From contig OZ316775.1 in NCBI GenBank assembly GCA_973851085.1, positions 7,998,001 to 8,062,000 on the forward strand: a stretch of DNA of 64,000 bases, read 5' to 3'. How positions within the stretch are numbered: the first letter of the stretch is position 1; the number at the start of each line of letters is the position of its first letter. Source of the stretch: Ptychomitrium polyphyllum (taxonomy: Eukaryota). Positions 27,501 to 60,528 of the stretch are shown piece after piece. The notes under the pieces were generated by a model, which saw only the letters and a list, made by a program, of their open reading frames with translations, did not search any database and had not been told where the DNA came from. A program made the translations under genes and the position numbers.

Positions 27501-28652
27501 GTGGAGGACTTTTTAGGGAAGAAATGAAGTTCAACCTTGTTCCATACCTCATTACGTAAGCTACCTCTTTAGGCTAAGAGGCTGTGCTTTTGTGTGAAAA
27601 GACCAGAGCCTTTCATTACTTAGCTCCTAATTGACCTTAAAGCACTATAATAAACAAAGATCACCTTGAAGCTTTATGCTTATTGTCAAGATGTTGGATT
27701 TGATCCAATTCCATCCATCATTCTACCATGGCAATTTGAAGAAATATATTTGTAAATAGGTTATTTTAGCTATGGTATTTAATGATTCTAGGTGGTATCT
27801 AAATCTACTACTTTGGATCTAATAATTTTTCTAATAATAATTCATAAGCATTCATTAGATGTTAACATCATTAATGATTGTGTAAATTTTGGAATTAGTT
27901 TAATTAGATACCTATACACAATTAAATTTGCACACTCCCCTTCATGTGCAAGAAACAACAAAAAACACCAAATGGAGAAGTACTAGAGTGAGTATCACCT
28001 TGATCTCATTTGTACCCTATTTGATGTTATCATTACAACTTGAGGTGGGAATTATCATTTTTTGCTATCATAAAATGCAAATGGGACTTACTACTAAATT
28101 TAACAACAAAATCTTTACTTGACAAATTTTTTTGTTTTTTAAGAATTCCTCTTCACCGTGAAGAAAAACATACCTAGTTTTCATATCCAATCAACCTAGC
28201 ACGGTTAGTGAATTCCAGCCTTACGTCCTAATTGAGTCTAATTTAAAACATATCTAGCTATGATGTAGGCAATGCTAAGTTAAGCGTACAATATTCATCT
28301 ATGCAACATTCATTGATGGCTAAGTTAAATCATTCTTCATTATATATATAACATTCATTCATCCATATCAATCCATTCGTTTACTAATAAAGCAATCCTA
28401 ACATTTTAGAATGATGCATACTAGCATTTGATAGCAAGATATAGTTTATACGTCTAATAAAGCATTCAACATTATCCAATCATTCTAATAACGAGATTAT
28501 CTTTTATTAGTAAAAATGTTGCACCAAAGATGTTGGAATTTGTCTTACGCCGCGCATAAGTTCTTTACAAACACCATCTTCAACTTCTTTATTAAATTTT
28601 TATTGCATTCTAATACAATTTTAAAACCCAGGAAGAAGTTCTCGGCAGATGT

Positions 28653-30164
28653 TGTTGTCGTGAAAGTAGTAGCTATAGGAAACACAAGGTCTTTTTTAGC
28701 ATCTAATTGATCAAAGTCAAGATGCATGAACAATTTCTATTTCTAACAACCAATGAAGCAAATACCCTACTCTAAATTTTTCTTCTACGCTACCTTGAAA
28801 ATCCCAAATGCTAAATATGTCATAACCTTTAGCAAACTAATCCAAAGAATCTAAAAGTTTAGCAAAACCTTTTTGAAACATTCAAAATGTTATATATATA
28901 TATTTTGGTTGCTAAATCCTTAATACCCTCTAAAATCCATAACTTCAAAGTTTGCATTCTTCATTGCTACAGCTTTTTTATCCCTATTACTTTACCACTT
29001 CATAACTCTCTTATTGCAAATTCAAACTTCAAACTTTCTGCACATAATAAATATCTTATAATAAACACCTTGTAAAAAGATTAACCTTATAAATTCTTTC
29101 AATCATCTACAATGATTCAAATTGTGCAACTCCAAACTCTATTGTATACTACCTTCTAAGTTCTAGTTGCATTTTTCTTTGTATCTTTTGCTAAAAAAAT
29201 GCAATGCTCACCAAATTTTGATATTATCTTTTCAAAGTAGTTTAAACCTTTTTCTCAAAATTTCACTTACAAAGAATGTTTCTAAAAAAAGTTACAAACA
29301 TTCAAACTAGCCGCCCTTAGAAACTCAAGGCAACTAACTTAATTCTATTCAAACTAAAGCCACGACCACATACTAATTCCAAATGGAGCGCGTAATGGCT
29401 TTCTAGAAAGCTTACAAAGAAAAAAGAAAACCCAACAAAAATCAACTCAAATTAAGAAGCATATTATGAGATCTCTCCCAAAGCAGGGCTGCCTTCTTAT
29501 TCTAGTGAGAGAGGTTAAGAGAAAAGAAGAGGGTGGTGGTCAAACCGCCACATCCGCCCTTTATCTCTCCACATCAGCCCCTAATCTCTTGTATCAAATC
29601 CTTATCTAATCATATTTTTAAATAAAAAACAACCAAAATCCTTTTTTTTTGCTTTTCTTTCTTTTCTTTCTTTTGGTTGAAACTTCTAGGTTCTAACTAT
29701 AAAGAAGGTAAAATAAACCCTCATAAATCTAAAATAGAAACTAGAAAAACTAAAATAAATTTAAAAAAGTAGAAAAAAGATTGAAATACAACAAGAAACA
29801 AGTTAAGAATAAAACCATTGTCGAGGTAAGATCAGACACCAAGTCATGAACTTGGTTGATTATATAAGTTTCAGTTGTTGAACTGGTCCAAGTTTAATTT
29901 TTGTTGGATTTGTTGAGTAAAACGGCAGCACTTGACTTAATATTGCTAGCAAAAATGGCAGGCAAAAAAAAACTATAGTCAACCGGCTTAATTGCCTTGA
30001 GCAAAGATAAGATGCGGTTGCACCTCTAAGATAAATAAAAATTGTGGTTTCACCACGATCAGTTTTTAATTTTTTTTTTTTTCTTTCTTAATACTCTTTT
30101 CTAAATACACCAAATAAAAAATACTACTTAAGTTTTAAACTATATAGTAAAATTCATCACAACA
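28653..30164. mobile_element. Solo LTR (family C, about 1.5 kb) with 4-bp TSD ATGT/ACGT
   Basis: TGTTGT...ACAACA termini. Both ends match, in reverse complement, the ends of the insertion at 43442-43984. Internal part is similar to about 37560-37722. Confidence 0.7.
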
Positions 30165-31449
30165 ACGTATCAAAATGTGAGCCAAATAAAACCTTCAACT
30201 AATTGGAGAGATTTACAATTTATACAATGGTGTTGATAATTGACTAATAGATTGTTGCGTTGTTAATCATTTGACATATGCTAGTGAACAAACTAGATTT
30301 AATAGATTGTCACTACTATTTATTCATAAATCTAATGTTATTGTTGTGGAATTTTATGCATGTCCATTGACACAAGGTTTGACAAGGGATTGGAAGAGAA
30401 TTGGAAATTTTGTTGTAGACAAGGTCCAAGACGTACTCCCGTAGAACTTTTCTTGTTTTTTCCTCCGCAATTCCTTTATTGGCTGATTTGCGTGCCTCCA
30501 GTTCTTGTAGCTATACTTTTTTTGTCCTAAATGTGCAATTTGTTTAGCTCGTTGTTGTTACTTTCTTGTGCAACTTGCCACATATCCGCCGCTTGCCTTT
30601 AGTCTTTTGCAATTTGCCTATCTTGCTTATAGGCCCGCAATACTATAGCCGCTCTTTGGATCTTGCAGTCTGTCTTGCATGATGTCTACAACAAGGTTGA
30701 ATTAGCTTCTAAATTTAATCTTCTTTATAAATTAGCATACTCTTAGATTCAAACCTACTTTTGAATTCACTTATTACTTCTACTAATATTTGATTTTTTC
30801 CATCTTAGCCAAGCTGAATTTCTCCTTCTTTCTTTATAATTGAATTGGAGTTTGTTCAAAAATATAAACTAAGCCTTTCAGAGCCAATTAATGAAAATTC
30901 TCCCAAAATCCAATTAGTTATGGAATGCACCCAATTACTAGTATTTCAGAAATAATCCTTCACTATTACCACTAATAGTTGATTTTAAGTAGTAAATAAT
31001 CAAATGAACGGATTACTTGGTTCATATATGGCAACCGTCTGGAACAAATTAAAGAAGTAGAGAACCTAATTAAAGTGCTATGAGAAAAGTGGGAAGTTAA
31101 TGGCTACACAATCATAGATGTATTGAGTCCTCTAAAGAATGGAAATGTGAGATTGGACTATCATATGGGTGGATTGAAGAAAATGTTTATAAGAGAATCT
31201 AAGAATGTTGATTATAGAGATAAGAAGAAGATGCTAGGAGGAAAATAAAAGTTATATTTTTACTTCTAAATTTAATGTCAATAGCTGTTTGACACTCATG
31301 GATCCATTCAAACTTGACGATTTTCTAGTGAGATTAGTAAGAGGATGGAGGTGGAAGCATAATCTACAATAATGTCTATATACCACCCCATGTGACCCAA
31401 AGCTCTCTCCATGCCTTTGGCGTTTATAGGCGGGCCAATTTAGCAACTA

Positions 31450-36369: not shown

Positions 36370-36900
36370 TCTTTGAGTGATCTCCGTAGGTGGAAAAAAT
36401 GGCGTTTGTTGGGTGGAAATGTTAGTAGTTTTGTTTTGGGCAAACTTAGCTAATGCCACATAAGAAGTCCAATCATTTTGTTATTAGTTGATGGTATATC
36501 TCAAATATTGTTCCATGATTTAGTTGATTTATTTTGTTTGGCCATCGGTCTAAAGATGGAAGGCAAAAGAAAGTTTTATGTCTACCTTTAGGACTTCAAA
36601 GAGCAACTTCCAAAATTTTGATACAAATTGTGGTCCACAATCCAATATAATATTGTCAGATAATCCATGATAACGGCAAACATTATCCATTAAAGGTGTG
36701 GCAATCTCTTTATCTGTAATTGTCTTTTTGCATGGTACATTTGCCATCTTAATTAATCGATCTACCACAATAAAGATGGTATTAAAAAAATTTGACGGTG
36801 GAAGATCTGTAATGAAATCCATTGAAACAGATCATCACAATTGCCTTGGAATAAGCAATGATTGGAGAAGTCCATATGGGCAATCTTGTGGTAAGAGTGG
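36370..36900 (-). mobile_element. Gypsy integrase fragment
   Basis: MDFITDLPPSNFFNTIFIVVDRLIKMA...HGLSDNIILDCGPQFVSKFW (36550-36822). Confidence 0.85.
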
Positions 36901-37724
36901 TTTCTATACAAAACGTTGGATAATTTTGCATTTAGTCAATTAAGTATAAGTTTTTTTTTAATAATACAAATTACAACTTCTGAGAACTTATTAGCTATTT
37001 TTTCATCTTTGATTTTTTACTTCCTAAATCTTCTTTTCTCCCCATCTTAAAAATAACCCAAGTCTTTAACAATAATTATTCTTTTTCTTTCTTTTAAATC
37101 TGAATTACATATTTTCCTATATCTTCTAGCTAAAAGGTCCTATGCTCCTAAGATTTTAATAATATAAGTATAGAATTCTAAAATTGCAACTCTCACAATT
37201 TCTTATTTATAGTCCAAGTGGTTCTTAAGAATCATGTCTTTAAAATATTTTCACTCTTTCTGCCATAGCTTCTGGACCTCTCCATTACTTCATAGTTCTA
37301 TAATTTTTTTTTACAATAAATTTAGACTATAAACTGTATTGACATACTATCTATCTTACAATAAACATTTAATCAAAATTTCAACCTTAAAGCCCTCCAA
37401 TCATTTCCAATGGCTCAAAACATGTAGCTTTGAACTCTATTATATATGCTTTCAAATCCTGGTTGTATAATTCCTTATGATTCCTATTGTAAGAATCTAA
37501 TACTCTTGAAATTTTCTACACCATCATTTTTAAGTAGTTATAATGTTCTTCTACAAATTTCATAATAAAAAACCAATTCTACAAAACGTTATAAGCATTC
37601 AAAATATTTGCTTTCAAAAATTCAAGGCAACTGACTAATCTTTATTAAAATTAGTGCCAACCATATATTAATTCTAAATGAAGCCTTTGATGGCTTTCTA
37701 AAAAGCTCACAAGAAAAAAGAAAT

Positions 37725-38741
37725 TGATTAGTAGCGAATGCTTAGGTGCAAACTTCCATTCATGTCCAAGGCCTCAGTTGGTATTACTTCCATTTCACAC
37801 AGCCTAACCGCATTTAATGGTATCTCTTCACCACCACTCATGATTCCCATGTGATTCTAAGATCACCTTGGGCCACCATAGTGCCGGCGTAAAGACACTA
37901 CTCCAACTTAATGATAACAAGCGTACCTTTTTAGATTTCACTAATTCCTTTTATGAAACCAGTCATCCACCGGCTTACAATGGTGTAGGAGTCTCTGTGG
38001 TGAAGCCCCAATATTAGCTCCATCCACCAGGGTTCATCCTTGATTCCTACCGAGACATTATAAAAATGGAAAGGAGGACCAGCCCTCCCCTATAGTACTC
38101 TATGTGGAATTCAGCAAGCCCCCTGGCCTTCTATAGCTAGCTAAATCCCAACACACTCAAAACTTTGGAAGACCACCCGATCTTCCTTGGGACTTAACCG
38201 CTGGAAGCTTCCGGAACTTCCTACGGACTTTTAAAAAGCCATATCTTCTACGTTTGGTTCCCAAATCTATCAAGCAACCACTTTATTGTCATCCACTCTT
38301 AGCGTAGATGCCGATAGACTCCTCAAATGTCTAATATAACTTAGTATTTTGGGAGATATGCCTCTCCTAAGGTTTGGAATTCTTAGGAAGTCCCTCCTTG
38401 CATTGTTCTAGTCCAGCACAGTTATAGTCAAGGGCTACCATAGTTTAGAACAGCCTTTGGAAGCCTCAACTTTGGAGTACCATATCTTTTAGCTCCCTTA
38501 TCCAATTTGAGCAATCTTTTGCATTCTAGAATTAGTTTGTAATGAGGACTCCAATGCTCATAGTTTCTTCCTTGTGGCCCTTAGTCTACATGAGCAAGGA
38601 TGTTTTTCTCCCTTAAGATCCTTTCCACGCTAGGCCCACTTAGATCACCTCATTATTAGTGCCACAAGTCTCGGACGTCGCTTTGAAGTCCCCCTTGTGC
38701 CTTTAGTGTTGCGGGCACTCCTCAAAAAGAAGAGCGCGACA
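37725..38741 (-). mobile_element. LTR family D (probable 3' LTR of the chromovirus, truncated at its left end)
   Basis: Colinear with 40596-41741 and 54466-55281. Ends GCGCGACA at 38741. Confidence 0.85.
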
Positions 38742-39539
38742 TCCACCACTACTTAAATGGAGTCAATGCCTTCATCAACTGTATTTGTAGTGTAGACTCC
38801 AAATCAAAGTTTGCCATCTTCTAGTGGTGCAGCATTTTGTTTTCTCTAAGGTGCGATCCCTACGATGCATTCATAAATCTTTGGCAAAGTCTTAAAGGTG
38901 TCGTTTAGGAGGTGGTCTGTTTAGGCATCCTAGACAAAATTCTTGGGGTCCTAAACTACTCTAGACCTACCTACTTTGAGACCCTTTTAGGATAGACTCC
39001 CCAGTTAGGCTACACTTCCCTAACTCTACCTTTTTAATTAGGGTGGACTTCAATGCTCCACCAAGTTCTCTTAGTTGCAAACTCAAGGTGGCTTTTATTC
39101 CAAGACTCAATCGCACGGGGATATTGTGAAGTTCCGTCCAATTCTGATTCCACTATTTTTTTAAGACATGAATTTATGACTCCCATGTTTTAACTTTTGT
39201 TAGTTTATAGGAGTGGCGCTTTTATGAGCACGCACCATTACCTTGTTTCCACCCAAACAAGCCCAAGACTAAGAGGTTTCATGGTTTTAATCATTCTTCC
39301 TCCAAGCCTTAGTCCCTATTACTTGGCCTTCCCAACTTGGTTTTACATGTCTATTCTCTCTCTTCTATCAACTTAGCACAAACACAAGATTGGGACATCA
39401 TCTTATATTCTTATCTTAGCATACACAAAAGTTGAACTTTATTGCCATAAGTCAAAGAACCAATATATGATGTGAAGAAATTACTACCATAAGCCTCTCT
39501 CCCCCACTAAAAGAGATTGATGTCTTCATCAATGCCGAC

Positions 39540-39887
39540 ATTGTTCTTTGTTGGAATTTCTATCCCTCTCAAAGCGTTCCACTACTTCATTGGTATTTTC
39601 TAAGTTCTTGGCCGCTATCAAAATTGCTTCCTTTTCATGGTACCTTCACCACTTCACCAAATATTCTTTTCCTATTTTCTTGAAGTGCCTACACTTGAGA
39701 ATTTTTTTCACTTTGTATTCCAAATAATTGCCTTCTAATTTTGGCAGTGGCCAAATTATTTGCTTGCAATTGGGCCACAAAGTATCTTTTTTGAATGGCT
39801 TAAGGAATGAGACATGAAATGTTAAGTGTAATTTGATTTTGGATGGTAGCTCTAACTTATACACATCTTTAAACACCTGCTTTATTG
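39540..39887 (-). mobile_element. Integrase C-terminus with chromodomain (chromovirus)
   Basis: VYKLELPSKIKLHLTFHVSFLKP...EYKVKKILKCR...KEYLVKW. Confidence 0.85.
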
Positions 39888-40343
39888 TGTAAACAAAGAT
39901 CATCACTCACAATAGATCGAGTGCCAGCATCAATCATTAAATATGAAATCAAAACCAAACCCAAATGCATAAGAAGCACATCCTTAAGAACCTGGTTTCA
40001 ATCTACATTCAAGAAACTAATCATTCACACAAGAATCAAGCTATCTTTCACTCCATAAAGGAAGAATTTAAGAGTGCTAGTGTAAGAGGGAACTTAAGAT
40101 TTTACTAAAAGTTACTAAACCATAGCCACAAGAAAGCATCATAATTTTCTTCTCCAAAAACACACTCACAAGACTTGACTTGATAATAATGTCAAGTCAA
40201 GAAGCTTTTCCTCTACTTACAACCAAATCCTAGGTAGATGAGCCTTGAAATTTGGATGAAACTCATCCAAATCTAATATGGACTCCTACAGGATTCCATT
40301 TAATAAACTAATTGACATGATATGGCCTTTTGATGTCACTTCA
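39888..40343. mobile_element. LTR-like repeat (family E); second copy at about 48690-49011
   Basis: AATCATTCACACAAGAATCAAGCTATC...TGTCACTTCA shared by both copies. TG...CA termini. The left about 80 bp recurs at about 40358-40440. Confidence 0.7.
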
Positions 40344-40595
40344 TGTAACAGTTGTCATATAAACAAAGATCGTCACACATAACAGATCGAGTGCTAGCAT
40401 CAATCATCAAATATAAAATAAATACCAAACCCAAATGCTCAACAAACATCCCTTCAAGTGCCCTCCCTAGCAGATAAAGAGTCTTTCCAATCAGCTAGGA
40501 ACAAATACACACGTTGTTGGAGATAATCGCGATGGTGATGTTGCTGCAACATTTGTACACATCCATCTCAGTATTGTGGCCTCGGTATAACAACC

Positions 40596-41741
40596 TGTTG
40601 CAACCCTCGTAATGCACCTTAGTAAGCGTTACGTGCGTCAATCCAGTATACCTCCATATGCACATGGTTAACTCCCATTCTCACTCTTCAAGTCTTTCTA
40701 CCATTTCTTTTAAGACACTTAATTGATTGGTAGCCAATGGTTAGGTGCGGACTTCCATTCATGTCCAAAGCCTCACTTAGGTGTTACTTCCATTTCACAC
40801 GGCCTAACTACACTTAGTAGTGTCTCTTCACCACCACTCATAATTCCCATGCGATCCTAAGATCACCCAAGGCCATCATGGTGCCGGTGTGAAGACACCA
40901 CCTCAACTTAGTGGTAATAAGCATACCTTTTTGAACGTACTAGGTCCCGCCGTGAAACCGGCCATCCACCGGCTTACAATGGTGTGGGAGTCCCCGTGGT
41001 GAAGCTCCAACACTAGCTCCACTAACCGGGATTCACCCTTGGTTCCTATTTGGATACTAGGAGAGTGGGGAGGGGGACCAGCCCTCCCCTATAGTACTCT
41101 CTGTGGGATTTGGCAGGCCCCCTGGCCCTCTATAGCTGGCTAAACCCCGATATACCTAAAGTTTTGGAAGACCACCCGATCTCCCTTGGGACTTAGCAGC
41201 TGGAAGCCTCCGGAACTCCTAGCGGACCTTCAGGGAGCCATATCTTCCTTTTTTGGTGCCCAAATGTATCAAGCAACCACTCTATCGTCATTTACTCTTT
41301 GCGTAGATGCCGATAGACTTCTCAAACATCCAATTTGAATTAGTATTGTGGAAGATACGTCTCTCCCAAGGTTCGGGATTCTCGGGGAGTCCCTCCCTGG
41401 ACTGTCCTAGTCCAGTACAGTCACTGTGTGGGGCTGCCACAGTCCAGAACAGCCCCTTGGCAACCCCAACTTTGGAATGCTATAACTTTTAGCTCTCTTA
41501 TTCGATTTGAGCAATCTTTAGCATTCTAGAATGAGTTCTACGTGATTCCTCCAATGCCCACAATTTATCCCTTGTGGCCCTCGGTCTACATGGGCAAGGA
41601 TGTTTCTCCCCGTCGGGATCTTTCCCATGCTAGGCCCACTCGGTTCCTTTCACAATTGGCACCACAAGTCCCGAACGTCACTCCGGGGTCCCCCTTGTGC
41701 CCTTAGTGTTGCGGGCACTCCTCAAGGAGAGGTGCGCAACA
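40596..41741 (-). mobile_element. Solo LTR family D with TSD CAACC/TAACC
   Basis: TGTTGCAACC...GCGCAACA termini, flanks match at 4 of 5 bases. Confidence 0.85.
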
Positions 41742-42910
41742 TAACCAGTCGTGGAAGAATTTACACTCGCCATGGTACAAGCGCAATTTCCAATGCCGTA
41801 ATTGCTTAAACGCTATCTATAAATGCCTCACATGTTTCTGTGGGCTACTACTAAAGATGATAATATCATTAATGTACATTCTAGCAAATAGTAAGCCAAC
41901 CAAAACATGGTCCTTCACCCTCTGAAAATCAGCTGGTGCATTCTTTAGGCCAAATTGAAGAAACTTCCAATGATAGAGTTGATCCTTGCCATCTTGATCA
42001 ACTCTCCAAAATGTTGTCTTTAATTGGTCTTCCACAAACAATGGCAATTGGTGATAGCCAAATTGCAAGTCCAAAATGCTGAAAACTCAAGAGAAATCAA
42101 TCACATTAAATAGTTACTCTGACATTGGCATCGGGTACTGGTTTAACTTGGTCTTATGATTAACTTGATGGTAATCTCTACACATTCACATCTCTGTCCA
42201 CTTGCTAAACATATCCTTCTTAAAAGGCATCATTGTCGCACAAGCATACTCCCCATTAGAGAACTCAATCAAACTTGCAGCCAATAACTCTTGACAACAA
42301 GTTTGAACACCAAATTTCTTTGAGGCAGTCAATCTATAAGGTCGTCAAAAGATTAGATGATCATCTTTCAATTGAATGTGAATGAGTTTGCTTCTTAGCC
42401 TTCAAGGTCGTTGAGGCTAAAGGCAAAATAGTTGCAATACGAGCGGATAAAAGCCTTTAAGCTTCGTGTTTCGGCACCTGTAAGATGTGGCCCTAATTCC
42501 AATGGCCAATTATTAAACTTTGTGGCCTCTTTCTTTGCCAATTGAAAACCACTACATGCCGGCACGCCTTCTAATTGTTAATCTGTAGCAGAAAAAACTC
42601 TCATGCCCTTAGGATCCTTACTAAAAGCCAAATGAGGAGCTTTACCACCATCATCTATGTATAAGATGGCAGTTTCATCAAAACATGGAGTACCTTGCAA
42701 AAAGAGCCGTGAGAACATTTCTTAGGCATTTGCTCGTCCAAAGTCTTACGCCAAAGCAACAAAAACGAGTTGAACTTGTAGCTCTTCCATTGCATGCTAC
42801 TTCAAGCAAAAAAGTAACTCAGATTCCTCAACTTCAGTGAGTTTTTGCTCTACTGCCCCTTGACCATTGCTCTCCGACCTTAGAGAAACCAAATGGCCAT
42901 AATGATGTTG

Positions 42911-44440
42911 CTAGACAGCAAGACAGATGCCAAAAATCCACACCAAAGTGTTGAGGTCTATAGCTTGGTCCAAAAGAAAGCAACATTGATCCTCAGGGAG
43001 ATCATGAGTAGCTGTGGTGCCTGTCAAAAAATCCATAGCGCGCTCCCTCTCATCTGCAGTAGGCTCTTTATGAGTTTGTGAATGTGAATTCCAAACCATG
43101 CCAAGCCCACGTGCTTGAAATGCAAAAGATCTCGGATATGTCACCAATGTGGGCAACGCCCTATTAGATGCTCCCAGCTTGTTGACCAAAGCCAATAGAG
43201 ACTCATTGTCTTTAGAAATAGCCAAGGCAAAGCGATGACCATCTAAAATATCATCCACCTTGCGTCCAGTGGGTCGTTGGATTTTAGAAAGTGTTGCCGT
43301 GAGTACATGAGATGGTGCCAAGTTGGTCCAAATCCAACAACGACGATGTGCGTAAGAATCCAAAAATGCAACATCCACGAAGGTTGGAGGACCATGGAAT
43401 TGGCAAAAATACTATCCATCCTTTAAAACCTTTGTCTGTGTTGTCATGATGTAATTAATTGTATAGTTTAAAACTTGAGTAGTATTTGTTGTTTGGTGTA
43501 TTTGGAAAAAAGTATCAGGAAAAAGAAATAATTAGATTAAAATAAAGGTTGTGGTAAAACCACAATATTTATTTATCATGGAGGTGGAACCGCATTTTTA
43601 TCTTAGCTCAAGGTGATTAGGCCGATTAACTGTAATTTTTCCATCTTGCTGTTTTTGCTAGCAATACCAAGTTAAATTAGCTGCCTTGAGTTTCTGAGGG
43701 CAACTAGTTTGAATGTTCATAACTTCTTGTAGAAACGTCTTTTGTACGTGAAATTTTTAGAAAAAAATTCAAATTACTTTAGAAAGATGGTGTACAAAAT
43801 TTTAACAAAACTTTTTTAAAACATTCAGTAAGCTATATATAAATTTTGGTTGCCAAATCCTTAGTACCCTCTAAGATCTATAATTGGGTGTTAGAAATAG
43901 AAACTCTTTATGCATCTTGACCTTGATCAATTAGATGCTAAAAAAGACCCTGTGTTTTCTATAGCTACCACTTTCATCACGACAGCGTGTTACGTAATGG
44001 AGGCACATTTTCAAAAATATACCTAGGCGGCGTAGCTTGGTGTGTAAACCACCACTCTATAAGCTGGCTAGATTAAGTCTGCAAATAGACTTGACCGGAG
44101 GTCATCCAAACCTCAACCCGCTCCGACATGTGAATGGCCTTGATAAGGCCACCTAGCAATGAATAAGTCAACATGGTCCAATCTCCTCAAATCCTCATCA
44201 CTAATGAAAAAGACATCTCGAGGAAATTGGCCAAAACAACCGTGAATGGCAGATGAAATTAACTGCTCCGAGCATAAAGCCAATAATATCTAGAGGTGAT
44301 GTTAGGCTGCTCAATTGGATACAAAACCTAGTATCCATATGAATGTATTGCTAAACATTGAATCCGGCTTCTAAAATTGCCGCCAAACTGGTACCAATGC
44401 CTACAAATAGCTCCACTAGGGTAATACCCTCAGTTGGTGG
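42911..44440 (-). pseudogene. Retrotransposon-borne C5-cytosine DNA methyltransferase domain (DNMT3/DRM-like), decayed
   Basis: Motif I LVELFVGIG (about 44393-44419), IV VDLFIARWPYQGHS...GLDDLRSSLF (about 44080-44175), VI YIFENV (about 44004-44021), VIII DSYAHRRCWIWTNL (about 43320-43360), IX/X ERERAMDF..GTT...LLDQAIDL (about 42950-43050), in canonical order. Confidence 0.85.
43442..43984. mobile_element. Internally deleted solo LTR family C interrupting the MTase domain, 4-bp TSD GTGT/GCGT
   Basis: TGTCATGATG...CATCACGACA. Both ends match 28653-30164 in reverse. Removing it plus one TSD copy rejoins ENVPPLRNT-QTKVLKDG in frame. Confidence 0.8.
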
Positions 44441-47375
44441 ATGCCAATGAATAGGATAAACAAAGGAAAATAGTGATGAGGTAGCTGGTACATTCAAAAG
44501 CTCCAATGAAGCCACAATCTTTTGGCATTGCCAAGATAGTTCTTCCAAAGTGTTCCACGGTGGAAATGGATTTTTGCAATGTCGTGCAGAAACTTCTAAA
44601 GGTAGTAAACCATGTTATTCCACTGAACTAATCATAAATGCAAATGTCTCCTCTAGCAGAATAGGTCCATAAGGTAAGTCTGTTATTCAGACGCTGCAAC
44701 CAAATAAAGTCTCCATTGACATAGTTATGGCAACTACTGCAAATGCTATAGGAATGGATTCTTTTCTTCCATCTCTTGCAAACCAACCTAGCCTAATCTA
44801 TGTCTCTTCAATTCAATTGTCTAAAACCAAAATTAAGTGGATAAAGTACCTGCTGACCAATTAAAAAATCATAGTTGGTAACAGTGGTCACTACACATTA
44901 TAAAAACAAGTGTGAGTAAAGAAGGTCAGAACCAATGCAAAGAATCAACTGCAATGGTTGTCTAATATAGCCAGTAGTACGCTCTGTGCCTCCAATTGAG
45001 GTAATGATGGTAAATGGACAAGGTTCAAGGTCTGCATCACCTAGACCTAGCTCTTAAGTAAGATGCTTGCCAATCATGACTGGCTAAGCACCAGAGTCCA
45101 TTATAACTTTCATCGGTGTAGCACGAGTGGCATTGCCATTGGTACGGCTAACAACAAGTACATTGTTGTCATTAAATAGCTACACCACTCTTATAGCCAA
45201 TGGCGCATCAAATGAAGAACTTAGCTTCATTTGCTGTGAAGCACCTGCATTAAATGCTACAATGGCTTCAGCAGCAAGCTTAGCTGGCAACATAGCCAAA
45301 TCCTCATCTATGGAAGGCCTAATTATTGCTTGAGCCACTTCAAGAAATGGCATAGCAATTTTGCCTTCTAACATCTTGTCAGCCAAGTGAAAAATCCTAA
45401 CTGGATGAAAATTTGGTGATGTCAGCTCAACACTGGAGAAAATAGGCATATGCAACACCTTTTGTGCCAAAGTGTGTGCCAAGTCTCTAAAAGCAGTTCC
45501 TCCATATTGTGCTAAAGCTAGAAGAATAGGTTAAGATGCAGAACCAACATCTACAAGGCTAAATGATAATGGCAACCACACTTGGCCAATCCGATCTGAT
45601 GAACCACTATGACGTATACGCACGCTTTGTTGTGATTCATCCATGTTGGTCGTCACCATCTTGGCTGCTGTTTAGGCACGTGTGGCAATTGCAGCCACCA
45701 TCTCCCCTGAAGCCCCTACCATATAAATATCTGAAGCAGAAGTGCTTATTCCATTCCAAAGAACCACTTTAAAGCCAGTGACGTGATCCAATGAAGCCAC
45801 AATCTGGAACTTCTTTTCCAATTCTATAAACTTGGCTTCTAATGCTTTTTCTTTCTCCAAAAAAGGCCGCTTTTCCGGATGTAAAATAAAACAATGATCA
45901 TCATCATAGTTGAGCTTGTCACAATAAGAACACTTCAACTATTTCTTCTTGGCCTTCTCTGCAATCTTGACCACATCTTCCGTCTGCTTAGACTTATCCA
46001 ACATTGGAGCTCTCTTCTTCTCAGGGCAATTAGGATCATTCTTGGTATGACGAGCTTCACCACACCCTCAATAATGCAAAGTCTTCTCAGACTAAGTCTC
46101 TGCCAAACTATTTGTAGCAATAGTAGCCTTCTTAGATTTGGAAGCATCTGTCATCTAAGAAACCATATCAGTGGCATCGTGTTGACAGAGAGTTCAATCA
46201 CACATCTCAACTTCAGTAAATGATTGAGCCAACGTTGCTCGACCATGGTAGTTGAAAATAATCCTTAGCATAGCCAAGTCTAGCAGTCGCTTGTGAATCT
46301 TAGACAAATAGATCTGGACAAGCTGACTCTTTGCAAATACACATCTAGATTCCATTGCAAACATTTCCAAATGGGTATATATAGTATATGAAGTCTCTTC
46401 CTTCTTCCGATAGAAGTCTTAGATGCATTGCATCTGATCACACCTGAAGCCTCCATGCTCAACCTCCAGATGAGCTATAAACAAGCAAAGTGGCTCAAAC
46501 AACGATGGCTGACCAAGTGCAGATAATGCTGCCTGCGTAGCCTATGCCATTTGTAATATTGTGGTAGAGGATTAACTCAATATCGGAGCCTTGTTTTTTG
46601 TGTCTTTAAAATATGAGCCATTCCCTTCTACAAGCTTCTCTTCCACCTTCACTGCAGGGATCAAACTAGCCACTGCACCTTCCTTCAAGGTAGAAATTAG
46701 CTCTACACGAGCCTTCTAATAGCGTTCCACCTCACGCAATTGGAGCTCATGTTCATCACTCCACCGTTCATATGCCTGAATTGCCTCAAACTCCAAATGC
46801 TCTGGCAACAGTCCAAATGCGTACTAGTTATTGAAACTTGGAGACCGCTAACGCTTCTTTTTCATCCAAGTCCAAAACTTGAGCTTCCAATTGAGTAGGG
46901 AAATGCCCCTAGCCCTTCCAGAAAATTGATCCCTCAAAACATGTCGAGGATCGTCATCCATCTTGTCAAATGTGGCCACACTCCAAATCCAAAGCCTATT
47001 TGTAGTATTTACTGCTGGCTCAAAGTCTTTAGTGTGTGCACCTTCCAAATAGTCTAGTGACGGAAATCGATAATAACAACTCCGTGTTTGCACCATAAAA
47101 ATGAGTACTTGGGTACTTGCAACAATCTAAAGGATAAAGAAGCAACCTGCACTTGCACCTGCAATTACCACCAAACTATGCAATGAATTGGTCATCACCT
47201 TCAATCATCATAGGTCCAACAAGTACCGCCCACATGGTACTAACAAAAAGAATCTCGCTAGTTATCAATCCAATTTCATCTCTACGATACGCCTATAAAC
47301 ACAGACTACATACAACACAAAATGGAGCAACACTATAAATCAACACCAACAATGCTCGCAACATGGGAGAGTACT

Positions 47376-47978
47376 TATCACGGACACAGATCATGCAACA
47401 TAGTTCCTTGAACATTCTAGAACCTTCTAATATACCATAATAGCTTTTTAGAATACTTTTAGACGTTTCCATAGTCTTTCCATGTTTTTAAGAAGCTTCC
47501 TAAGAAAATTCCTCCATCTTAGGAAACTTCCTAGGAAGGTTCTATCATCTTAGATAACTTCCTAGGAAATTTCCTACAAAGACTCCATCATTTTAGGAAA
47601 CTTCCTAGGAAGGTTCTACCTCTTTAGGAAACTTCCTAAGAAGGTTCCGCTACCTGAGGAAACTTCCAAGGAAGGTTCCAACATCTTAGGAAGGTTCCAA
47701 CATCTTAAGAAACTTCTTGGGAAGGTTCCCTAGACTTCCAGAACATTCTTAAGCCTTGTAGGAAGCTTCTTTAGAAGTATCCTAGGAGATACAAACGTCA
47801 TAGTATAAATAGGAAGCAAGACAAGGTATTCTTTAGTCTTGCCAATACAAGTTGTGGATCATTTTGAATCCTGCCTTGTTATAGTCTTTGTATCAAGTTT
47901 TTGTTAATCATTAGCTCTTTGGAAGCTAATTCTTAGGAAACACTTTGTTTTTGCTTCTTGTTTCTTGTATCCCTACCA
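47376..47978. mobile_element. Solo LTR family A with expanded about 29-bp internal tandem array
   Basis: Aligns with 2848-3356. Repeats of TTAGGAAACTTCCTAGGAAGGTTC.. at about 47490-47730. Flanks GTACT/CTACC are only a partial TSD match. Confidence 0.8.
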
Positions 47979-50900
47979 CTACCATAACAAAAATAAAAAA
48001 TTCAAAGCCTAGATTTTCTTCCCAACAACAAATTGCAAAATGCAAGTGGACTAAAGCAACCGGCATATGCCTGCGGTTAATAGCCACAAAGTCACAAATA
48101 CCTGCAATGCAAAAAAAATTCTAAAAGTATTTTCTTAAGTTTTAAACTAAAAAGATAGTGAGAACTTTTGGCTGAGGTGTTGAAAAACACAAATCTCCTA
48201 ATGAAAATAGCAACACTAGGGGATACAATGTGCCACAAAGCCAATCTAATATTAAAAATGAATTAAATGGCTAAATTCCCAAATGTAGGTGCAAATTTTG
48301 CTCAAAATTGAGTAAAAATGCCTTCACAATCCATCTCCAAAATTTAGACTCTATTTTTCTTTTTATTTAAAAAAAAACACATAAAAATGTGATTTTTGAA
48401 AAACTTTTATCACCAAAAGTTTTCATTAACAATAGGTATATTTACCTCTACAAAATCCAAATCTGCAAATAAATTCAAAAATAACCTTTTTTGCAAAAGT
48501 TATGAAGTCGCAGTAATTAAGAAATTAGAGGTTGTCTAAAATCCACGAAGTTTTCAAGGTTTCCTCCTTATCTGAGCTGGTCTATGCTGGTATGGTGCGA
48601 TTGGAAATCTTCATGTTTCCTAGATTTCAAAAACTTTACTTTTTCTAAATTTTAGAATCTTCATTTTTGTGGATTTTAGACAAGGGTCCTAATCATTCAC
48701 ACAAGAATCAAGCTATCTCTCACTCCACAAAGGAAAAATTCAAGAATTCAAGAGGGAATTTAAGACTTTACTAAAAGCTACTAAACCATAGTCATAAGAA
48801 AGCAACAACATAAGTTTCTTTTTCAAAAATACACTCACAAGATTTGACTTGACAACAATATCAAGTCAAGAAGCTCTTCCCCTACTTACAACCAAATTCT
48901 AGGTGAATGAGCCCTGAAGATTGGATAAAACTCATCCAAATCTAACATGGACTCCTACAAGAGTCCATTTAACAAACTAATTGACGTAATGTGGCCTTCT
49001 AATGTCACTTCACATGACGTGCTCCACAATGGAAAACAGCCTCGCAAAATTGGACATGAACTTTAAAATGAGGCCTTCTGGCAAACTAAAATTCTTTACA
49101 TTCAACAATACCTTTTGGCCTATTTCATACTCCACTTTATGTCTTCCGGCGTTGACTTGTTTCTCGTATTGTTTTTGTACCTTTTTCAACAAAAGCTTGG
49201 TCTACTCCAACATTTGTTTCCGCTTTTTGGCCAAGTCTTCACCATCTTAGTTAAACTCTAGTATTGAATGTGCTCCTTCAAGTGCTAAGTCAGTAGGCTA
49301 AAGTGGCTCCACTTTATAGGCCACTTTAAATGGCGACTGCTTTGACGCCAAATGATTAGCCGCATTGTAATTGAACTCCGCTAGGTTCATATAATCCAGC
49401 CAATTCTAGTGATTCGCACTCACAAAGTTCTTCAAGATCTGGTTTTAGACTTTGTTCACTCGTTCTGTTTGCCCATCCGTTTGAAAATAGAAGGCAGTAC
49501 TAAATATCAATTTGGTTCTAACCTTCCTAAAATATGTTTCCAAAAAGCACTAGTGAATTTTGGATCTTGGTCCGACACAATCACTCTTGGCAATCCATAA
49601 TGTTTCCATCATGCATTGAAGAATAGCTTTGCAATCTCATATGCGGTTATGGTTCCTCTAATTAGCACCATGTGCGCCAACTTGCTAAAGCAATCTACCA
49701 TTACAAAGATGGCATCATGCCCTTGTAATTGTAGAAGATTTGTAATGAAGTCCATGGACACGCTATGCCATGGACCCAGCGGAATTGGCAAAGGTTGTTG
49801 TAGATCGGCTTGCTTTTGGTAAGAGGCTCAATTGAGTTGGCACTTCACACAAGTTTTCACAAAGCCGGTGATCTCCACTTTCATGCTCGGCCAATAGTAC
49901 CTTCTTAACACCGCCGCCATGGAGGTTTTTTCCCTCTATAGCCAGCTATGAGACTATCATGTTCTTCTTTCAAAACCAACAACCGTAGTTTTCCTTGATG
50001 CACATACACCCAACTTTGTTTGTACTTGAGCAATTCCTTCTCCAACTTAATTTCCTTAAGTTTTTTACCCTTCTTAAGCTCACCAAGAAGCCTTTGTGCT
50101 TTAGAGTCCTTCATGTATCCTTCTCTTATTTTCCTTTCCAAATTGCCTTCTCCCTTGTACATTACTTGCAGGACTTGGATTGTGCTCATTGCTTGCAATT
50201 CTTTCCGCCTACTTAGAGCATCCGGCACTACATTGTCACACCCGGGCTTGTGAATCAAATCCACATTCATGAGTGCAAAGCTGTCATGCCACCTCAATTG
50301 CTTTGCACTCATTTGTGCTTGTGACTCAAAGTACTTCAAGGACACATTGTCCGTATAGACTTTGGTTTTATGTAGGTCCAAGTAGTGCTGCCATGTTTCC
50401 AAACAATGCACTACGGCAAAGAGTTCCTTCTTGTGCGTGGGCCACTTCTTTTGGCACCCATCCAACTTCTTGCTCTCATAGGCAATTGGCATGCCTTCTT
50501 GCATGAATACTCCGCCAATGGCAAAGTCACTTGCATACGTGTGGACTTCAACGGGCTTTTTAAACTTGGAAAACTTCAATACCTGCGGTTGTAAAAACTT
50601 GCCCTTGAGTTCTTTAAAATATGGTGATAAAATTCATCGCATATTTGGCTAGTTCCTTTTTTCAACAAGTTAGACAAAGGTCTAGCAATTTTGGAGAAGT
50701 TGCATATGAATCTTTTATAATAATTTGCTAGGCCGAGAAATGATCTCAGCCCTTTTTGTGTAGAAGGTTGTTTCCACTCTCTAATTGCCTTTATCTTCCT
50801 TATGTTTGGCTTAATATCATCATCTGTCATTATATGGACCAAGAACTCAATTTCAAGTTAAGCAAACTTGCTCTTTTTTCCGTTGGCATAAAGTTTGTAG

Positions 50901-51114
50901 TCCCTAAGTTTTTGAAGAACCACTTCGAGGTGTCTTGCATGTTCTTCCGCCGATTTGAAATACACTAAGATGTCATCAATATAAACAATGACAAAGTCAT
51001 CCATATCTTCTCAAAAGATGGTATTTATGGAGGTCATGAACGTTGTAAGAGCATTGCACAACCCAAATGGCATCACCAAAAATTCATAGGACCCATATTT
51101 AGTGTGGCATGCAG

Positions 51115-52257
51115 TCTCGCGCACCTCTCTTTGAGGAGTGCCCGCAACACTAAAGGCACAAGGGGGACCCTGGAGTGATGTCTGGAACTTGTGGCGCTGA
51201 TAGTAAAGTGGCCCAAGTAGACCTAGCACGGATGGATTCTGAGGAGCAGAAACATCCTTGCCCATGTAGACCGAGGGCCACAAAAGAGAAGTTGTAGGTA
51301 TTAGAGGACTCACAAAGAGTTGATTCTAGAATGCTAAAGATTGCACAAATCGGACAAGGGAGCTAAAAGATATGGCATTCCAAAGTTGGGGCTGCCAAGG
51401 GGCTATTATGGACTGTGGCAATCCTAGACAATGATTGTACTGGACTAGGATAGTACAGGGAAGGACTCCCTGGGGGTTCCGAACCTTAGGATAGGCATAC
51501 TCCTAGAATACTAAATCAAATTGGACGTCCAAGAAGTCTATCGGCATCTACGCAAAGTGTAAATGACAATAGAATAATTGCTCGGTAGATTCGGACACCA
51601 AATGTAGAAGATATGGCTTCCTGAAAGTCCGGAGGAAGTTCCAAAGGTTTCTAGCGGCTAAGTCCCAAGGGAGATTGGGTGGTCTTCCAAAGGTTTGGAT
51701 GTATCGGGGTTCAGCCAGCTATAGAGGGTCAGAAGGCCTGCCAAATTCCACAAAGACTACTATAGGAGAAGGTTGGTCCTCTCCCCCCAACTCCCCTAGT
51801 ATCCGGGTTAATAGAGCTAGTGTTAGGGCTTCACCACGAGGACTCCTACGCTATTGTGAGCCGGTGGATGACCAGTTTTACAAAGGGAAGTAGTGAGATT
51901 AAAAGGGCATGCTTATTACCACTAAATTGAGGTGGTGTCTTCACGCCGGCACCATGATGGCTTGGGGTGATTTCAGGATTACATGGGGATTATGAGTGGT
52001 GGTGAAGAAATACCACTAAGTGCAATTAGGCCGTGCAGAATGGGAGTAACACCTAAATGAGGCCTTGGACATGAATGGAAGTCCGCACCTAACCATTGGC
52101 TACCAATCAATTGGGTGTTCTAAAAGAAATGGTAGAAGGTATTGGAAACTCGGCTTGGAACTTGGAGAGTGAAAATGCGGGTTAACCATGTGCATGTGGG
52201 AGTGTACAGGGTTGATGCGCGTGGTGTTTGTTAAGGTACATTATAAGGATTGCAACA
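51115..52257 (+). mobile_element. Solo LTR family D inserted antisense into the RT
   Basis: Reverse complement of 40596-41741. Splits the RT between ...ELET and ACHTKYGSYEF. Decayed TSD TGCAG/TACGG. Confidence 0.85.
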
Positions 52258-54451
52258 TACGGTCTCTAGCTCATCTTTACCTACAATGTGGATTTGGTAG
52301 TAGCCCGACTTCAAATCTATCTGTTTAAAGTATTTAGCTCTCGCCGATCTATTAAAGAGGTCATCAATCTGAGGCAAAGGATAGTTTTTCTTGATGGTGG
52401 CTTTATTCAAGGCTCTATAGTCAACACATATGCGGAGCTTGCCATCCTTGTTGTCTACAAAGAGGACCAGTGCTCCATATGATGACTTACTTGGCCTGAC
52501 ATAGCCTCTTTCTAACAAGTCATTCAACTGCTTCTTCAATTCTTCTAACTCTTTTTGGTTCAACCAGTATAGAACCTTCAAAAGGGACTCTATTCCCGGT
52601 ATCATTTCAATTTTGTGATCCACTTCTCTTCTTGGCGGTAACTTTGCGGGAAACTTATAAGTGAGCACATCCTTGTAATCACTTAATACATTTTGAATGC
52701 ACTTGGAAATAGTCCTAATCTCCTTGGTACTTAGCCTATTACTTTCTTCTTATTCCAATTGCATCACAACCACAAATTGATTCTTCTCTAATTGTTTTAA
52801 GGAAACTAAGTTCAACTTTCTTTCCGCAACCATAGGATTCCTAGTCAACTTCAATATTACCTCCTTCACACCATGGCGCACTACTAACGGTGTTGGTTTT
52901 TGCTTCACATCCACCACATGAGTTTTGAAAAAGGTATCACCTAAAATGAGGTCTACCTCATCCATCTCACATAGTGTAAAACTTTCCTTCAATTCCAATG
53001 TTCTACTACTTAAGGCCACATCCAACACCACTTCCTTCATCTTGTATAATTTGCCTTCTACAAATTGCATATTGATGGGCTTGCTAGCTTTTTGAATTGA
53101 CATACCCAACTCTCTTACTAGCTTGGAACTCATGAAGGATACGTTGTCCCTGTGTCAATCAAAGATGAGACATTTTTGCCATTTATTTGGGCTTTAGAGT
53201 ATAAGAGACTCAACCTTGGCTTAAAGCTACTAGCCTTGGCCACAAATCCACCTTCTAAAGTATGATCCACAACACAAGTGTAACAAATTTTGGTACTCAC
53301 TTTTTTATTGGGGCACTTCGCAATAAAGTGACCAATCTTGCCACACTCGTGGCAACGCTTGTGCTTCACCTCAGCACCCTTATCTCTCGATTTGAATGGT
53401 TTTTTCTCATGATGGTCCACTTTGTTGTAGGCCCTTCTATCTACTTGTCCTTTGTGTTTGTTTCCAAAGCCAAATTTCTTGCGTTCTCCGCCGTGAGATA
53501 TATTTTGGCTCAATCCACTTTGTTGAGAGGGACCACTTGATTTTTTTTTTGGGTGGTTGGCTTCAATTCTTTCTGCAATCTTAATGATTCCCGCCATGTC
53601 TTTTGGAAGCTTTGGGAACTTGAACTAGGCATCCACCACCCACTTTTGAAGCCCACCCAAAAAGATGCATTTCTTTGAAAACTCATCCATTTTGAATGTG
53701 GCATTCATTTGGGCATTGAAATCTTGCACCTAAATCTTGAAAATCTTGGTGCCTCATTTGCACCAAGTTTCATGCCTTCCTTCAACTCTTGGTATTCCGG
53801 AGTGAAGCGTTCACTCAAAATCTCTTTAAAACCAACATATGTCAAAGTTGTCACCAACTCCGGCTCTTGCTCTTTTTTACTTGTCCACCATTGAAGAGCA
53901 TGGTTTTTTAGAAAGGTGACCGCAATTGAACATCATGATATTTGTCCATTTCCAAAAGAAATTCTTTCACCTTTCTCGTTTAACCTAGCTTAGAAAAAGT
54001 GCTTGGCATGTTTACCTTGGCCAACTTCTTAGCTGAAGATAAAGTTCTAGAATCTTATGCCATCAAGTGCTCAATCAATCTCTCTTAATGGACCATTTTT
54101 TCTTTGCCACACTTGAGTTCTTGGTTCACACCGTCCATAAATTCTAACATTTTCATGCAAAAACTTAAGTCAGGGTTTTGATTTTCTAGGTCTTCAAGCG
54201 ACTCAAGAATCCTAGCCCTTGAGTACTCTCCACCTTCCAACGCTTTGTCTTTTTGAGTTTCTTTAACTTCCTCAATGACTCCAATGTCATCCTATACTCA
54301 TTGGATTGAAAAGATGGAGCCTCATTAATTGGATCAAGGTCTTTATTCATCCTCGTGCATAGTTGTTTAAAAGTTCCGGGCTTTCCGCCATCACTGGCTT
54401 TCTTCTTATCCATTGCCTCTTCACAACGTAGCACTTGGATACTAAAAGCCT

Positions 54452-54463: not shown

Positions 54464-55281
54464 AATGTTGCAACCTTTGTAATGCACCTTTTGTGAAACC
54501 GGTAATCCATCGGCTTACAATGGTGTAGGAGTCTCTATGGTGAAGCCCCAATATTAGCTCCATCCACCAGGGTTCATCCTTGATTCCTACCGAGACATTA
54601 TAAAAATGGAAAGGAGGACCAGCCCTCCCCTATAGTACTCTATGTGGAATTCAGCAAGCCCCCTGGCCTTCTATAGCTAGCTAAATCCCAACACACTCAA
54701 AACTTTGGAAGACCACCCGATCTTCCTTGGGACTTAACCGCTGGAAGCTTCCGGAACTTCCTACGGACTTTTAAAAAGCCATATCTTCTACGTTTGGTTC
54801 CCAAATCTATCAAGCGACCACTTTATTGTCATCCACTCTTAGCGTAGATGCCGATAGACTCCTCAAATGTCCAATATAACTTAGTATTTTGGGAGATATG
54901 CCTCTCCTAAGGTTTGGGATTCTTAGGAAGTCCCTCCTTGCATTGTTCTAGTCCAGCACAGTTATAGTCAAGGGCTACCATAGTTTAGAACAGCCTTTGG
55001 AAGCCTCAACTTTGGAGTACCATATCTTTTAGCTCCCTTATCCAATTTGAGCAGTCTTTTGCATTCTAGAATTAGTTTGTAATGAGGACTCCAATGCTTA
55101 TAGTTTCTTCCTTGTGGCCGTTAGTCTACATGGGCAAGGATGTTTTTCTCCCTTGAAATCCTTCCCATACTAGGCCCATTTGAGTCACCTCATTATTAGC
55201 ACTACAAGTCTCGGACGTCACTTTGGGGTCCTCCTTGTGCTCTTAATGTTGCGGGCACTCTTTAAGGAAAAGTACGCTACA

Positions 55282-59016: not shown

Positions 59017-60528
<1,512 letters not shown>

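What the first reader, a model, noticed from the sequence alone, without database searches (positions are those of the whole stretch)
42911..44440. Ty3/Gypsy retrotransposon carrying its own C5-cytosine DNA methyltransferase between protease and RT
Seen: on the same strand as the element's gag knuckle (about 45900), protease (VIMDSG, about 45100) and RT (41817-42340) lie C5-MTase motifs in canonical order. They are I LVELFVGIG, IV DLFIARWPYQG (PCQ decayed to PYQ, explicable by a G>A change), GLDDLRSSLF, VI IFENV, VIII AHRRCWIWTNL and IX/X ERERAMDF..GT...LLDQAID. Motifs IV and VI are not in the supplied ORF track and were read by hand. Known: AHR.R.FW.NL and ER..GF...T are DNMT3/DRM-style signatures, and standard Gypsy pol has no such domain. 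I recall DNMT-bearing retrotransposons being reported in dinoflagellates and charophyte algae, so the concept is not unprecedented, but I know of no characterised land-plant family. Inference: the MTase was part of the polyprotein and could have methylated the new cDNA or insertion, for self-regulation or to mimic host marks. This copy is dead.
Basis: partly seen in the sequence, partly recalled or inferred. Interest (0 to 1): 0.92.

Follow-up and report, generated by a model that had tools for sequence, protein, structure and literature searches.

The report
Bryophyte retrotransposon packing its own DNMT3
A dead copy in a moss genome belongs to a family of jumping genes, also multi-copy in the model liverwort Marchantia, that encodes a DNMT3-like DNA methyltransferase on its capsid protein, likely makes its reverse transcriptase only by reading through a leaky stop codon, and would methylate its own new copies; such elements had been described in algae.

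Summary
Window 39883-49019 (minus strand) is a decayed Ty3/Gypsy copy in a moss, 76-86% identical in DNA to intact relatives. Those have ORF1 Gag-protease-DNMT3-like methyltransferase (catalytic PCQ intact, dN/dS about 0.1), one in-frame TAG, then ORF2 RT-RNaseH-integrase-PHD finger. The TAG is followed by CAR-YYA, the tobacco mosaic virus readthrough signal, in 4 of 4 loci covering the junction. So the methyltransferase is not in one frame with RT; it is likely made at capsid level. The ends are split repeats (A-coding-B-A-B) with a 5-bp target duplication, the layout reported for KnitGypsy-Dnmt3 of Klebsormidium (PMC5890265). Marchantia polymorpha gene models include at least five full-length, catalytically intact ORF1 copies. 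Chlorophyte relatives carry the domain between RNase H and integrase. The kind is published for algae; ten literature searches showed no land-plant description. This scan noted the family before in two other genomes. Enzyme activity, readthrough and self-methylation are inferred, not shown. Verdict: new variant of a known kind, testable in Marchantia.

The parts
39883..49019 (-). whole element, decayed, with three later insertions and an internal deletion
   Evidence: ends and target duplication; match to L001
49020..49024 (-). target-site duplication, 5' copy (GAGCA)
   Evidence: the interrupted chromovirus frame reads on at the other end
39878..39882 (-). target-site duplication, 3' copy (AAGCA, one G>A)
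48689..49019 (-). repeat A1, left end of the element; followed by leader, not by B
   Evidence: 86% to A2; 34 transitions and 5 transversions in 322 sites
47375..47978 (.). unrelated repeat inserted in the 5' leader
   Evidence: matches window 2847-3356; absent from L001
42581..47096 (-). ORF1 remnant: Gag, two zinc-knuckle-like motifs, protease, DNMT3-like domain, helical tail; many stops, frameshifts near 44824, 44326 and 44068
   Evidence: tblastn with the 1359-aa ORF1 of L001; Gag-like features 0.93, a lead only
44820..45130 (-). aspartic protease remnant (VIMDSG, Asp at about 45098)
   Evidence: PF13650 E 0.02 in the window, E 2e-4 in L001, both under the curated cut-off
43985..44434 (-). 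methyltransferase, N-terminal half (motifs I-VI; catalytic Cys decayed to Tyr in this copy)
43442..43984 (.). 543-bp high-copy insertion with TG...CA ends and short inverted termini, splitting the methyltransferase
42919..43441 (-). methyltransferase, C-terminal half (motifs VIII-X)
42572..42580 (-). ORF1 stop with CAR-YYA context (TAA CAA TTA here; TAG in relatives and in other host contigs)
41742..42577 (-). ORF2 remnant: N-terminal linker and RT, frameshift near 42396
   Evidence: RVT_1 E 1.7e-13; 72-77% to L001 ORF2 residues 1-279
40596..41741 (.). solo LTR of another family inserted in RT, with its own 5-bp target duplication
40566..40595 (-). about 20 further RT bases, then the breakpoint of a deletion of about 2.5 kb (end of RT, RNase H, integrase, PHD)
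   Evidence: L001 5922 to 8444 has no match here; junction read
40459..40501 (-). conserved block ending in a G tract (polypurine-tract-like), upstream of B1
   Evidence: conserved in 4 of 4 aligned sequences; hairpin support weak
40353..40451 (-). repeat B1, ending in CA
   Evidence: 85% to B2
40351..40352 (-). 2-base spacer of the B1|A2 junction; palindromic CACGACA-GC-TGTCACG in L003 and L006, GT spacer in L001
40017..40350 (-). repeat A2, starting with TG
39883..39983 (-). repeat B2, right end of the element
   Evidence: 7 and 8 other contigs of runs X1 and X2 leave into unlike flanks at 39885

Best explanation
This is a decayed moss copy of a bryophyte Ty3/Gypsy lineage whose first ORF encodes Gag, protease and a DNMT3-like cytosine methyltransferase, whose RT-RNaseH-integrase-PHD ORF is likely made by readthrough of a UAG stop, and whose methyltransferase would be packed in the particle in many copies and would methylate the new cDNA. 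Shown: architecture, family status, purifying selection, conserved catalytic residues, end structure, moss host (about 0.97 together). Inferred: readthrough (0.8), which would put the methyltransferase at Gag level and RT and integrase at a few percent; catalytic activity in intact members (0.75); own cDNA or fresh insertion as the main substrate (0.55), so that a new copy arrives already marked. The PHD finger on integrase likely reads histone H3 tails to choose sites (untested). The internal B|A junction likely templates both cDNA ends, as in split-repeat DIRS-type elements, while the DDE integrase makes the 5-bp duplication; a cut after each CA of the palindromic junction would give normal processed ends (speculative, 0.35).
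For: Intact two-ORF loci L001 and L006, and L003 with one frameshift in ORF1. TAG-CARYYA in 4 of 4 loci that cover the junction while the second codon changes Leu to Ser; in-frame background 22 of 6387; other host contigs read TAG here (8 contigs in X1, 8 in X2). CAR-YYA alone directs readthrough in plant viruses (PMC2194720, passage). First Met of ORF2 is residue 117 in 2 of 3 loci and the residues before it match continuous polyproteins of 8 relatives (E 1e-20 to 7e-11). Catalytic Cys in 112 of 113 non-redundant relatives. DNMT dN/dS 0.115 and 0.072, like the protease. Family profile ranks DNMT3A/B/C (best E 1e-20) above DRM (7e-10) and bacterial enzymes (2e-6); the model of P0001 (pLDDT 83) matches DNMT3A (E 2e-18, TM 0.83 by target). 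Marchantia cluster of 18 proteins on chromosomes 1, 2, 4, 5 and V. Host gene 71% to Ceratodon, 53% Physcomitrium, 44-45% Sphagnum.
Against: No activity or expression data here. The Klebsormidium domain gave no methylation in yeast, which its authors call inconclusive (PMC5890265). The four junction loci are related, so they are not four independent tests; among Gln-Leu/Ser codon pairs 13 of 54 are YYA anyway. A pyrimidine-rich stretch precedes the TAG in all four, as a splice acceptor would have. The Marchantia junction DNA was not seen. CG depletion in intact ORFs (observed/expected 0.52-0.84) and the C>T decay of this copy in all three contexts are what host silencing alone would give. L001, L003 and L006 look like collapsed assemblies, so the full A-B-A-B order was read from the window copy only, with contig support for its 3' tail.
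Confidence: 0.6

Rival explanations
1. One-off capture of a host DNMT3 or DRM gene, or an adjacent pseudogene, in this copy only.
For: The window pieces alone do not pass the Pfam cut-off.
Against: Nine full-length Gag-protease-DNMT proteins among the first 17 hits; intact loci; other copies in the host runs; intronless; no DUF3444, which host plant DNMT3s carry (PMC6453930, passage; Pfam scans 13, 27, 65).
Confidence: 0.01
2. ORF2 is expressed from a spliced RNA that uses the TAG as acceptor, or from an internal promoter, and not by readthrough.
For: Pyrimidine-rich bases precede the TAG in 4 of 4 loci; L003 has a Met at ORF2 residue 14; the Candida element Tca2 has a stop-separated gag and pol whose junction was found to hold promoter activity (PMC2194720, passages and section headings).
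Against: Exact CAR-YYA context kept through a Leu/Ser change; ORF1 and ORF2 in the same frame in all loci; no early Met in L001 and L006; single-ORF relatives are continuous here.
Confidence: 0.15
3. The methyltransferase is active but works mainly on integrated copies, host chromatin or competing DNA, or on RNA, and not on the cDNA in the particle.
For: Being released by the protease from an abundant ORF1 product would also allow action outside the particle (inference); no substrate evidence was obtained here; in many algal relatives motif IV reads EC, not PC, so activity may vary.
Against: Fusion to Gag places it in the particle where cDNA is made (established Ty3 biology, recalled); related SymbioDIRS-Dnmt3 domains methylate CG de novo in yeast (PMC5890265).
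Confidence: 0.24

Closest known systems
KnitGypsy-Dnmt3 of Klebsormidium nitens (de Mendoza et al. 2018, PMC5890265; parts 1-5 of 7 of the text read, searches in three supplements; Fig. 4c and the main supplementary PDF not seen)
   Same: Gypsy domains with an intronless, unpermuted Dnmt3-like domain under purifying selection; DIRS-like split repeats (A-coding-B-A-B).
   Different: There the DNMT is stated to share an ORF with RT and RNase H; here it ends the Gag-protease ORF before a conserved TAG-CARYYA. Host is a moss, with relatives in Marchantia. I saw no mention of a PHD finger or readthrough in the text read. No Klebsormidium sequence was in hand, so orthology is untested.
SymbioDIRS-Dnmt3 and SymbioLINE-Dnmt of Symbiodinium (same paper)
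   Same: Retrotransposon-borne C5 methyltransferase; the DIRS ones methylate CG in yeast.
   Different: Tyrosine recombinase or LINE machinery, not a DDE integrase; independent capture.
EpiLTRs of Cymbomonas and Euglena (bioRxiv 10.64898/2026.05.21.726589, passages)
   Same: LTR elements that join a DNA methyltransferase with a chromatin reader.
   Different: DNMT4-related domain plus DAM and chromodomain; stated to be distinct from streptophyte Gypsy-DNMT3.
Stop-codon readthrough in tobacco mosaic virus, MuLV gag-pol and SIRE1 (PMC2194720, passages)
   Same: In-frame stop between two ORFs; CAR-YYA context as in tobacco mosaic virus.
   Different: Here the stop lies after Gag-protease-DNMT and before RT; readthrough not measured.
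Host plant DNMT3 (PpDNMT3a/b; PMC6453930, passages)
   Same: DNMT3-type catalytic domain in canonical order.
   Different: Host genes carry DUF3444; this domain lacks it and sits in a Gag-protease polyprotein.

Membership tests
Ty3/Gypsy retrotransposon | Order Gag-PR-RT-RH-IN | tested here: met
   L001, L003; L006 ORFs; the window copy has lost RH-IN
Ty3/Gypsy retrotransposon | TG...CA ends with 4-6 bp target duplication | tested here: met
   5-bp GAGCA/AAGCA with decayed ends; intact TG and CA at the junction in relatives
Ty3/Gypsy retrotransposon | Two complete, equal LTRs with a tRNA primer site after the 5' LTR | tested here: not met
   5' end has A only, 3' end B-A-B; no tRNA-iMet-type site in 4 of 4 sequences (one recalled motif only)
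KnitGypsy-Dnmt3 | Dnmt3-like, unpermuted, intronless domain in a Gypsy element | tested here: met
KnitGypsy-Dnmt3 | DIRS-like split repeats | tested here: met
   window copy, 3' tail supported by other host contigs
KnitGypsy-Dnmt3 | DNMT in the same ORF as RT and RNase H | tested here: not met
   stop between them in 4 of 4 loci and the window
KnitGypsy-Dnmt3 | Groups with the Klebsormidium sequences in RT and DNMT trees | not testable with these tools
   no Klebsormidium-named protein came back
DNMT3 family | Motifs I, IV, VI, VIII, IX, X in linear order with catalytic Cys, Glu and two Arg | tested here: met
   intact relatives; Cys lost in the window copy
DNMT3 family | Nests in the DNMT3 clade in a tree with host DNMT1, CMT, DRM, DNMT3 | not tested
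   no host reference sequences in hand; only similarity ranking
DNMT3 family | De novo cytosine methylation | not testable with these tools
   needs an assay
DIRS/Ngaro tyrosine-recombinase elements | Tyrosine recombinase, no target duplication | tested here: not met
   rve integrase and no recombinase hit; 5-bp duplication
Chromovirus | Chromodomain after integrase | tested here: not met
   PHD finger there instead (E 3e-10)
Phygy (REXdb) | RT clade of Physcomitrella, NCGN insertion preference (PMC6317226, passages) | tested here: inconclusive
   the one target site seen is a 5-bp GAGCA; no reference RT set to place it

The most novel reading that the evidence does not exclude
An ancient green-plant Ty3 lineage with a DNMT3 domain and an integrase PHD finger survives in land plants and is young in Marchantia. 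Its bryophyte branch moved the methyltransferase to capsid stoichiometry by placing a leaky UAG behind it, loads particles with the enzyme, methylates its own cDNA, and makes its ends without a tRNA primer from a palindromic internal junction that integrase cuts.
Probability: 0.25. Interest if true: 0.85.

Novelty: new variant of a known kind. Interest (0 to 1): 0.64.

Why it matters
Why retrotransposons carry the enzyme that silences them has been open since 2018 because the hosts were hard to work with. A 2019 opinion paper states that such transposons are absent from land plants such as tracheophytes (PMC6338049, section read). Near-identical, catalytically intact copies in Marchantia polymorpha would make the question testable in a genetic model. 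The stop codon suggests selection for much more methyltransferase than RT, which bears on its job. The relatives in chlorophytes (Scenedesmus, Monoraphidium, Haematococcus, Cymbomonas) suggest the capture is older than streptophytes, or spread sideways. Practical point: ORF1 products are annotated as hypothetical genes, and one as a bacterial methyltransferase of a metagenome bin (P0001).

Tried and rejected
No whole genome is held for this window, so copies were seen only as contigs of runs X1 and X2, which may be the source sample; summed depth is no copy number. No RNA holder was listed, which says nothing on expression. Single-sequence folding failed (pLDDT 34); the alignment-based model was used. 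Viral contigs gave no family member and 30 distant phage C5 methyltransferases, not used further. L002 rows for the DNMT and tail are invalid, because an in-frame TGA threw my codon alignment out of register; they were dropped, and the L003-L006 pair was saturated. The hairpin before B1 is weakly supported and my window slice was cut short. My first motif scan marked 75 proteins 'noPC'; the alignment showed these keep the Cys, mostly as EC. The 'cyanobacterium' and 'Obscuribacterales' labels of L006 and P0001 were rejected as bin contamination, given Gag, RT and integrase and the match to a moss genome. P0230 was left out of the tree. Literature searches without a land-plant description; the library lacks most subscription papers and repeat databases, and the main supplement of PMC5890265 was too large to read. 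PMC9985172 and PMC11982613 (passages) gave nothing on this family; PMC12344493 (passages) mentions only streptophytes and dinoflagellates.

Full report
Observation. Pfam on the decayed pieces gives RT clearly, and protease and PF00145 only under the cut-off. The C-terminal piece 42911-43411 finds 17 proteins among 1092 candidates at 51-77% identity; 16 pass PF00145 and 9 are 1252-1376 aa Gag-protease-methyltransferase proteins. A full-library search gives 568 proteins at E up to 0.001.

Intact relatives. Five metagenome loci and one contig from a genome bin encode close relatives. L001 has ORF1 of 1359 aa (Gag-like region, two Cys/His knuckles, protease, methyltransferase), one stop, and in the same frame ORF2 of 1047 aa with RT, RNase H, integrase and a PHD finger. 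L006 has the same plan and L003 too, apart from one frameshift in ORF1. The window copy matches L001 at 76-86% in DNA over the coding part. It carries many stops, four frameshifts, the insertion at 43442-43984, a solo LTR in RT and a deletion of about 2.5 kb that removed RNase H, integrase and PHD. At sites where L001 and a second relative agree, 369 of 558 differences are C>T or G>A, hitting 66 of 228 CG, 96 of 359 CHG and 207 of 1394 CHH cytosines, as expected from host methylation. Contigs of runs X1 and X2 show other copies along the whole coding part, up to 25 contigs differing at one site, and some join across the insertion.

Host. A neighbouring intronless gene is 71% identical to a Ceratodon purpureus protein, 53% to Physcomitrium and 44-45% to Sphagnum; expansin and amino-acid permease genes lie nearby. 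The host is a true moss; I did not place it further.

The methyltransferase. The L001 domain hits DNMT3A, 3B and 3C first among solved structures. A profile of 25 relatives ranks DNMT3 (best E 1e-20) above DRM (7e-10) and HhaI or HaeIII (2e-6), and the alignment-based model of P0001 matches DNMT3A best. Motif order is unpermuted and DUF3444 of host plant DNMT3 is absent. The catalytic Cys is kept in 112 of 113 non-redundant relatives, as PC in the whole moss and Marchantia group and often as EC in algal ones. dN/dS is 0.115 and 0.072 in the two usable pairs, against 0.09-0.13 for protease and 0.03-0.04 for RT, with synonymous sites near saturation. A tree against host DNMT families was not possible.

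The stop codon. In 4 of 4 loci that cover the junction ORF1 ends in TAG followed by CAGTTA or CAATCA; the window has TAA CAATTA, and other host contigs have TAG. CAR-YYA is the sole readthrough signal of tobacco mosaic virus (PMC2194720). It occurs at 22 of 6387 in-frame positions in three of these loci, though at 13 of 54 Gln-Leu/Ser pairs. ORF2 has no Met before residue 117 in L001 and L006, and that stretch is homologous to continuous polyproteins in relatives. Readthrough is the best reading; splicing at the TAG is the rival. If right, particles would hold far more methyltransferase than RT or integrase (inference).

The ends. Self-comparison gives A at 48689-49019 and 40017-40350, and B at 40353-40451 and 39883-39983: A-leader-coding-B-A-B. 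A 5-bp duplication flanks it, inside the SH3-like part of an older chromovirus whose frame resumes on the other side. Other host contigs cover the A2-B2 spacer and leave into unlike flanks at the B2 end. L006 is a closed 9158-bp assembly cycle coding-B-A-leader, as a collapsed element of this plan would give. The B|A junction is a conserved near-palindrome with two bases between CA and TG, and a G tract lies upstream of B1, not of A2. A1 and A2 differ by K2P 0.136; with a recalled moss rate of 9e-9 per site and year that is about 7-8 million years, an upper bound given deamination. The Fig. 4c legend of PMC5890265 gives KnitGypsy-Dnmt3 a DIRS-like repeat layout with Gypsy domains. How such ends are copied is my speculation.

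Range. A profile search returned 57 long proteins, among them Marchantia polymorpha Mp4g09160 and polyproteins of Scenedesmus, Monoraphidium, Haematococcus and Cymbomonas. The Marchantia cluster (90% identity) has 18 members; of the 15 listed, 7 keep the catalytic motifs and 5 are full-length proteins of about 1280 aa that end about 80 residues after the domain. Of 181 held proteins with a whole domain, 65 have it after RT, 18 before RT in one ORF, and 98 have no RT (domain scans on 30 of 150 and 24 of 57 hits). In the DNMT tree the proteins that stop after the domain, window family and Marchantia included, form one group (98 in FastTree with 112 rows; 91/95 in IQ-TREE on 34 chosen rows, below the star threshold). 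The named chlorophyte proteins fall in a separate group (99; 100/99), most with the order RT-RH-DNMT-IN-PHD. In the RT tree the window family sits with the 11 protease-DNMT-RT single-ORF elements (96, FastTree, 55 rows). Most of these proteins come from unnamed metagenomes, so hosts are known for few, and the trees are unrooted in effect. The PHD finger is closest to those of CHD4, PHF12, KDM5 and PHF21A; that several of these read unmethylated H3K4 is recalled, and specificity was not tested.

What is known. DNMT3-bearing Gypsy elements are published for Klebsormidium (PMC5890265), whose genome set held Physcomitrella and Selaginella; Marchantia does not occur in the three readable supplements. 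Later papers speak of streptophytes, and one says land plants such as tracheophytes lack them. Ten searches showed no description in mosses or liverworts, of the readthrough site, or of the chlorophyte PHD-bearing forms; the unread main supplement, subscription papers and repeat libraries may hold one. Two earlier notes of this scan report the family in other genomes; their short texts do not mention readthrough, split ends or Marchantia.

Verdict. A real, dead copy of a real family. It works like KnitGypsy-Dnmt3 and is probably its land-plant relative, but it fails one defining feature (shared ORF with RT). New variant of a known kind; interest 0.64.

Noticed in passing
window 10980-12104 and 17328-18452: Two alpha-expansin genes in inverted orientation, 99.4% identical over 1125 bp: a very recent inverted duplication or gene conversion.
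   Followed up: partly
window 43442-43984: The high-copy insertion has ends resembling the element's own (TGTCA...CACGACA); it may be a non-autonomous or solo derivative of a related family. Pieces recur at about 28650-30170 and 37500-37630.
   Followed up: partly
window about 36550-39882 and 49020-53620: Decayed chromovirus (Gag knuckle, RT, RNase H, integrase, SH3, chromodomain) into which the element inserted.
   Followed up: partly
window 37722-38742, 40596-41741, 51119-52257, 54487-55281: Four copies of one LTR family at 74-95% identity.
   Followed up: no
window 59017-60633: 538-codon minus-strand frame with a possible signal peptide, long poly-Asp tracts broken by Cys pairs and 45-bp Ser-rich repeats; no Pfam hit.
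   Followed up: no
window 19500-22310: Intron-containing amino-acid permease gene on the minus strand.
   Followed up: no
P0215, P0132, P0208, P0282: Algal-type relatives add G-patch or Tudor domains to the RT-RH-DNMT polyprotein.
   Followed up: no
P0319: A distant element has a C5 methyltransferase between RNase H and integrase with an SH3 domain and no PHD; possibly a separate capture.
   Followed up: no
L006 and P0001: Family members sit in bacterial genome bins, and P0001 is annotated as a bacterial methyltransferase; likely plant DNA in the bins.
   Followed up: partly
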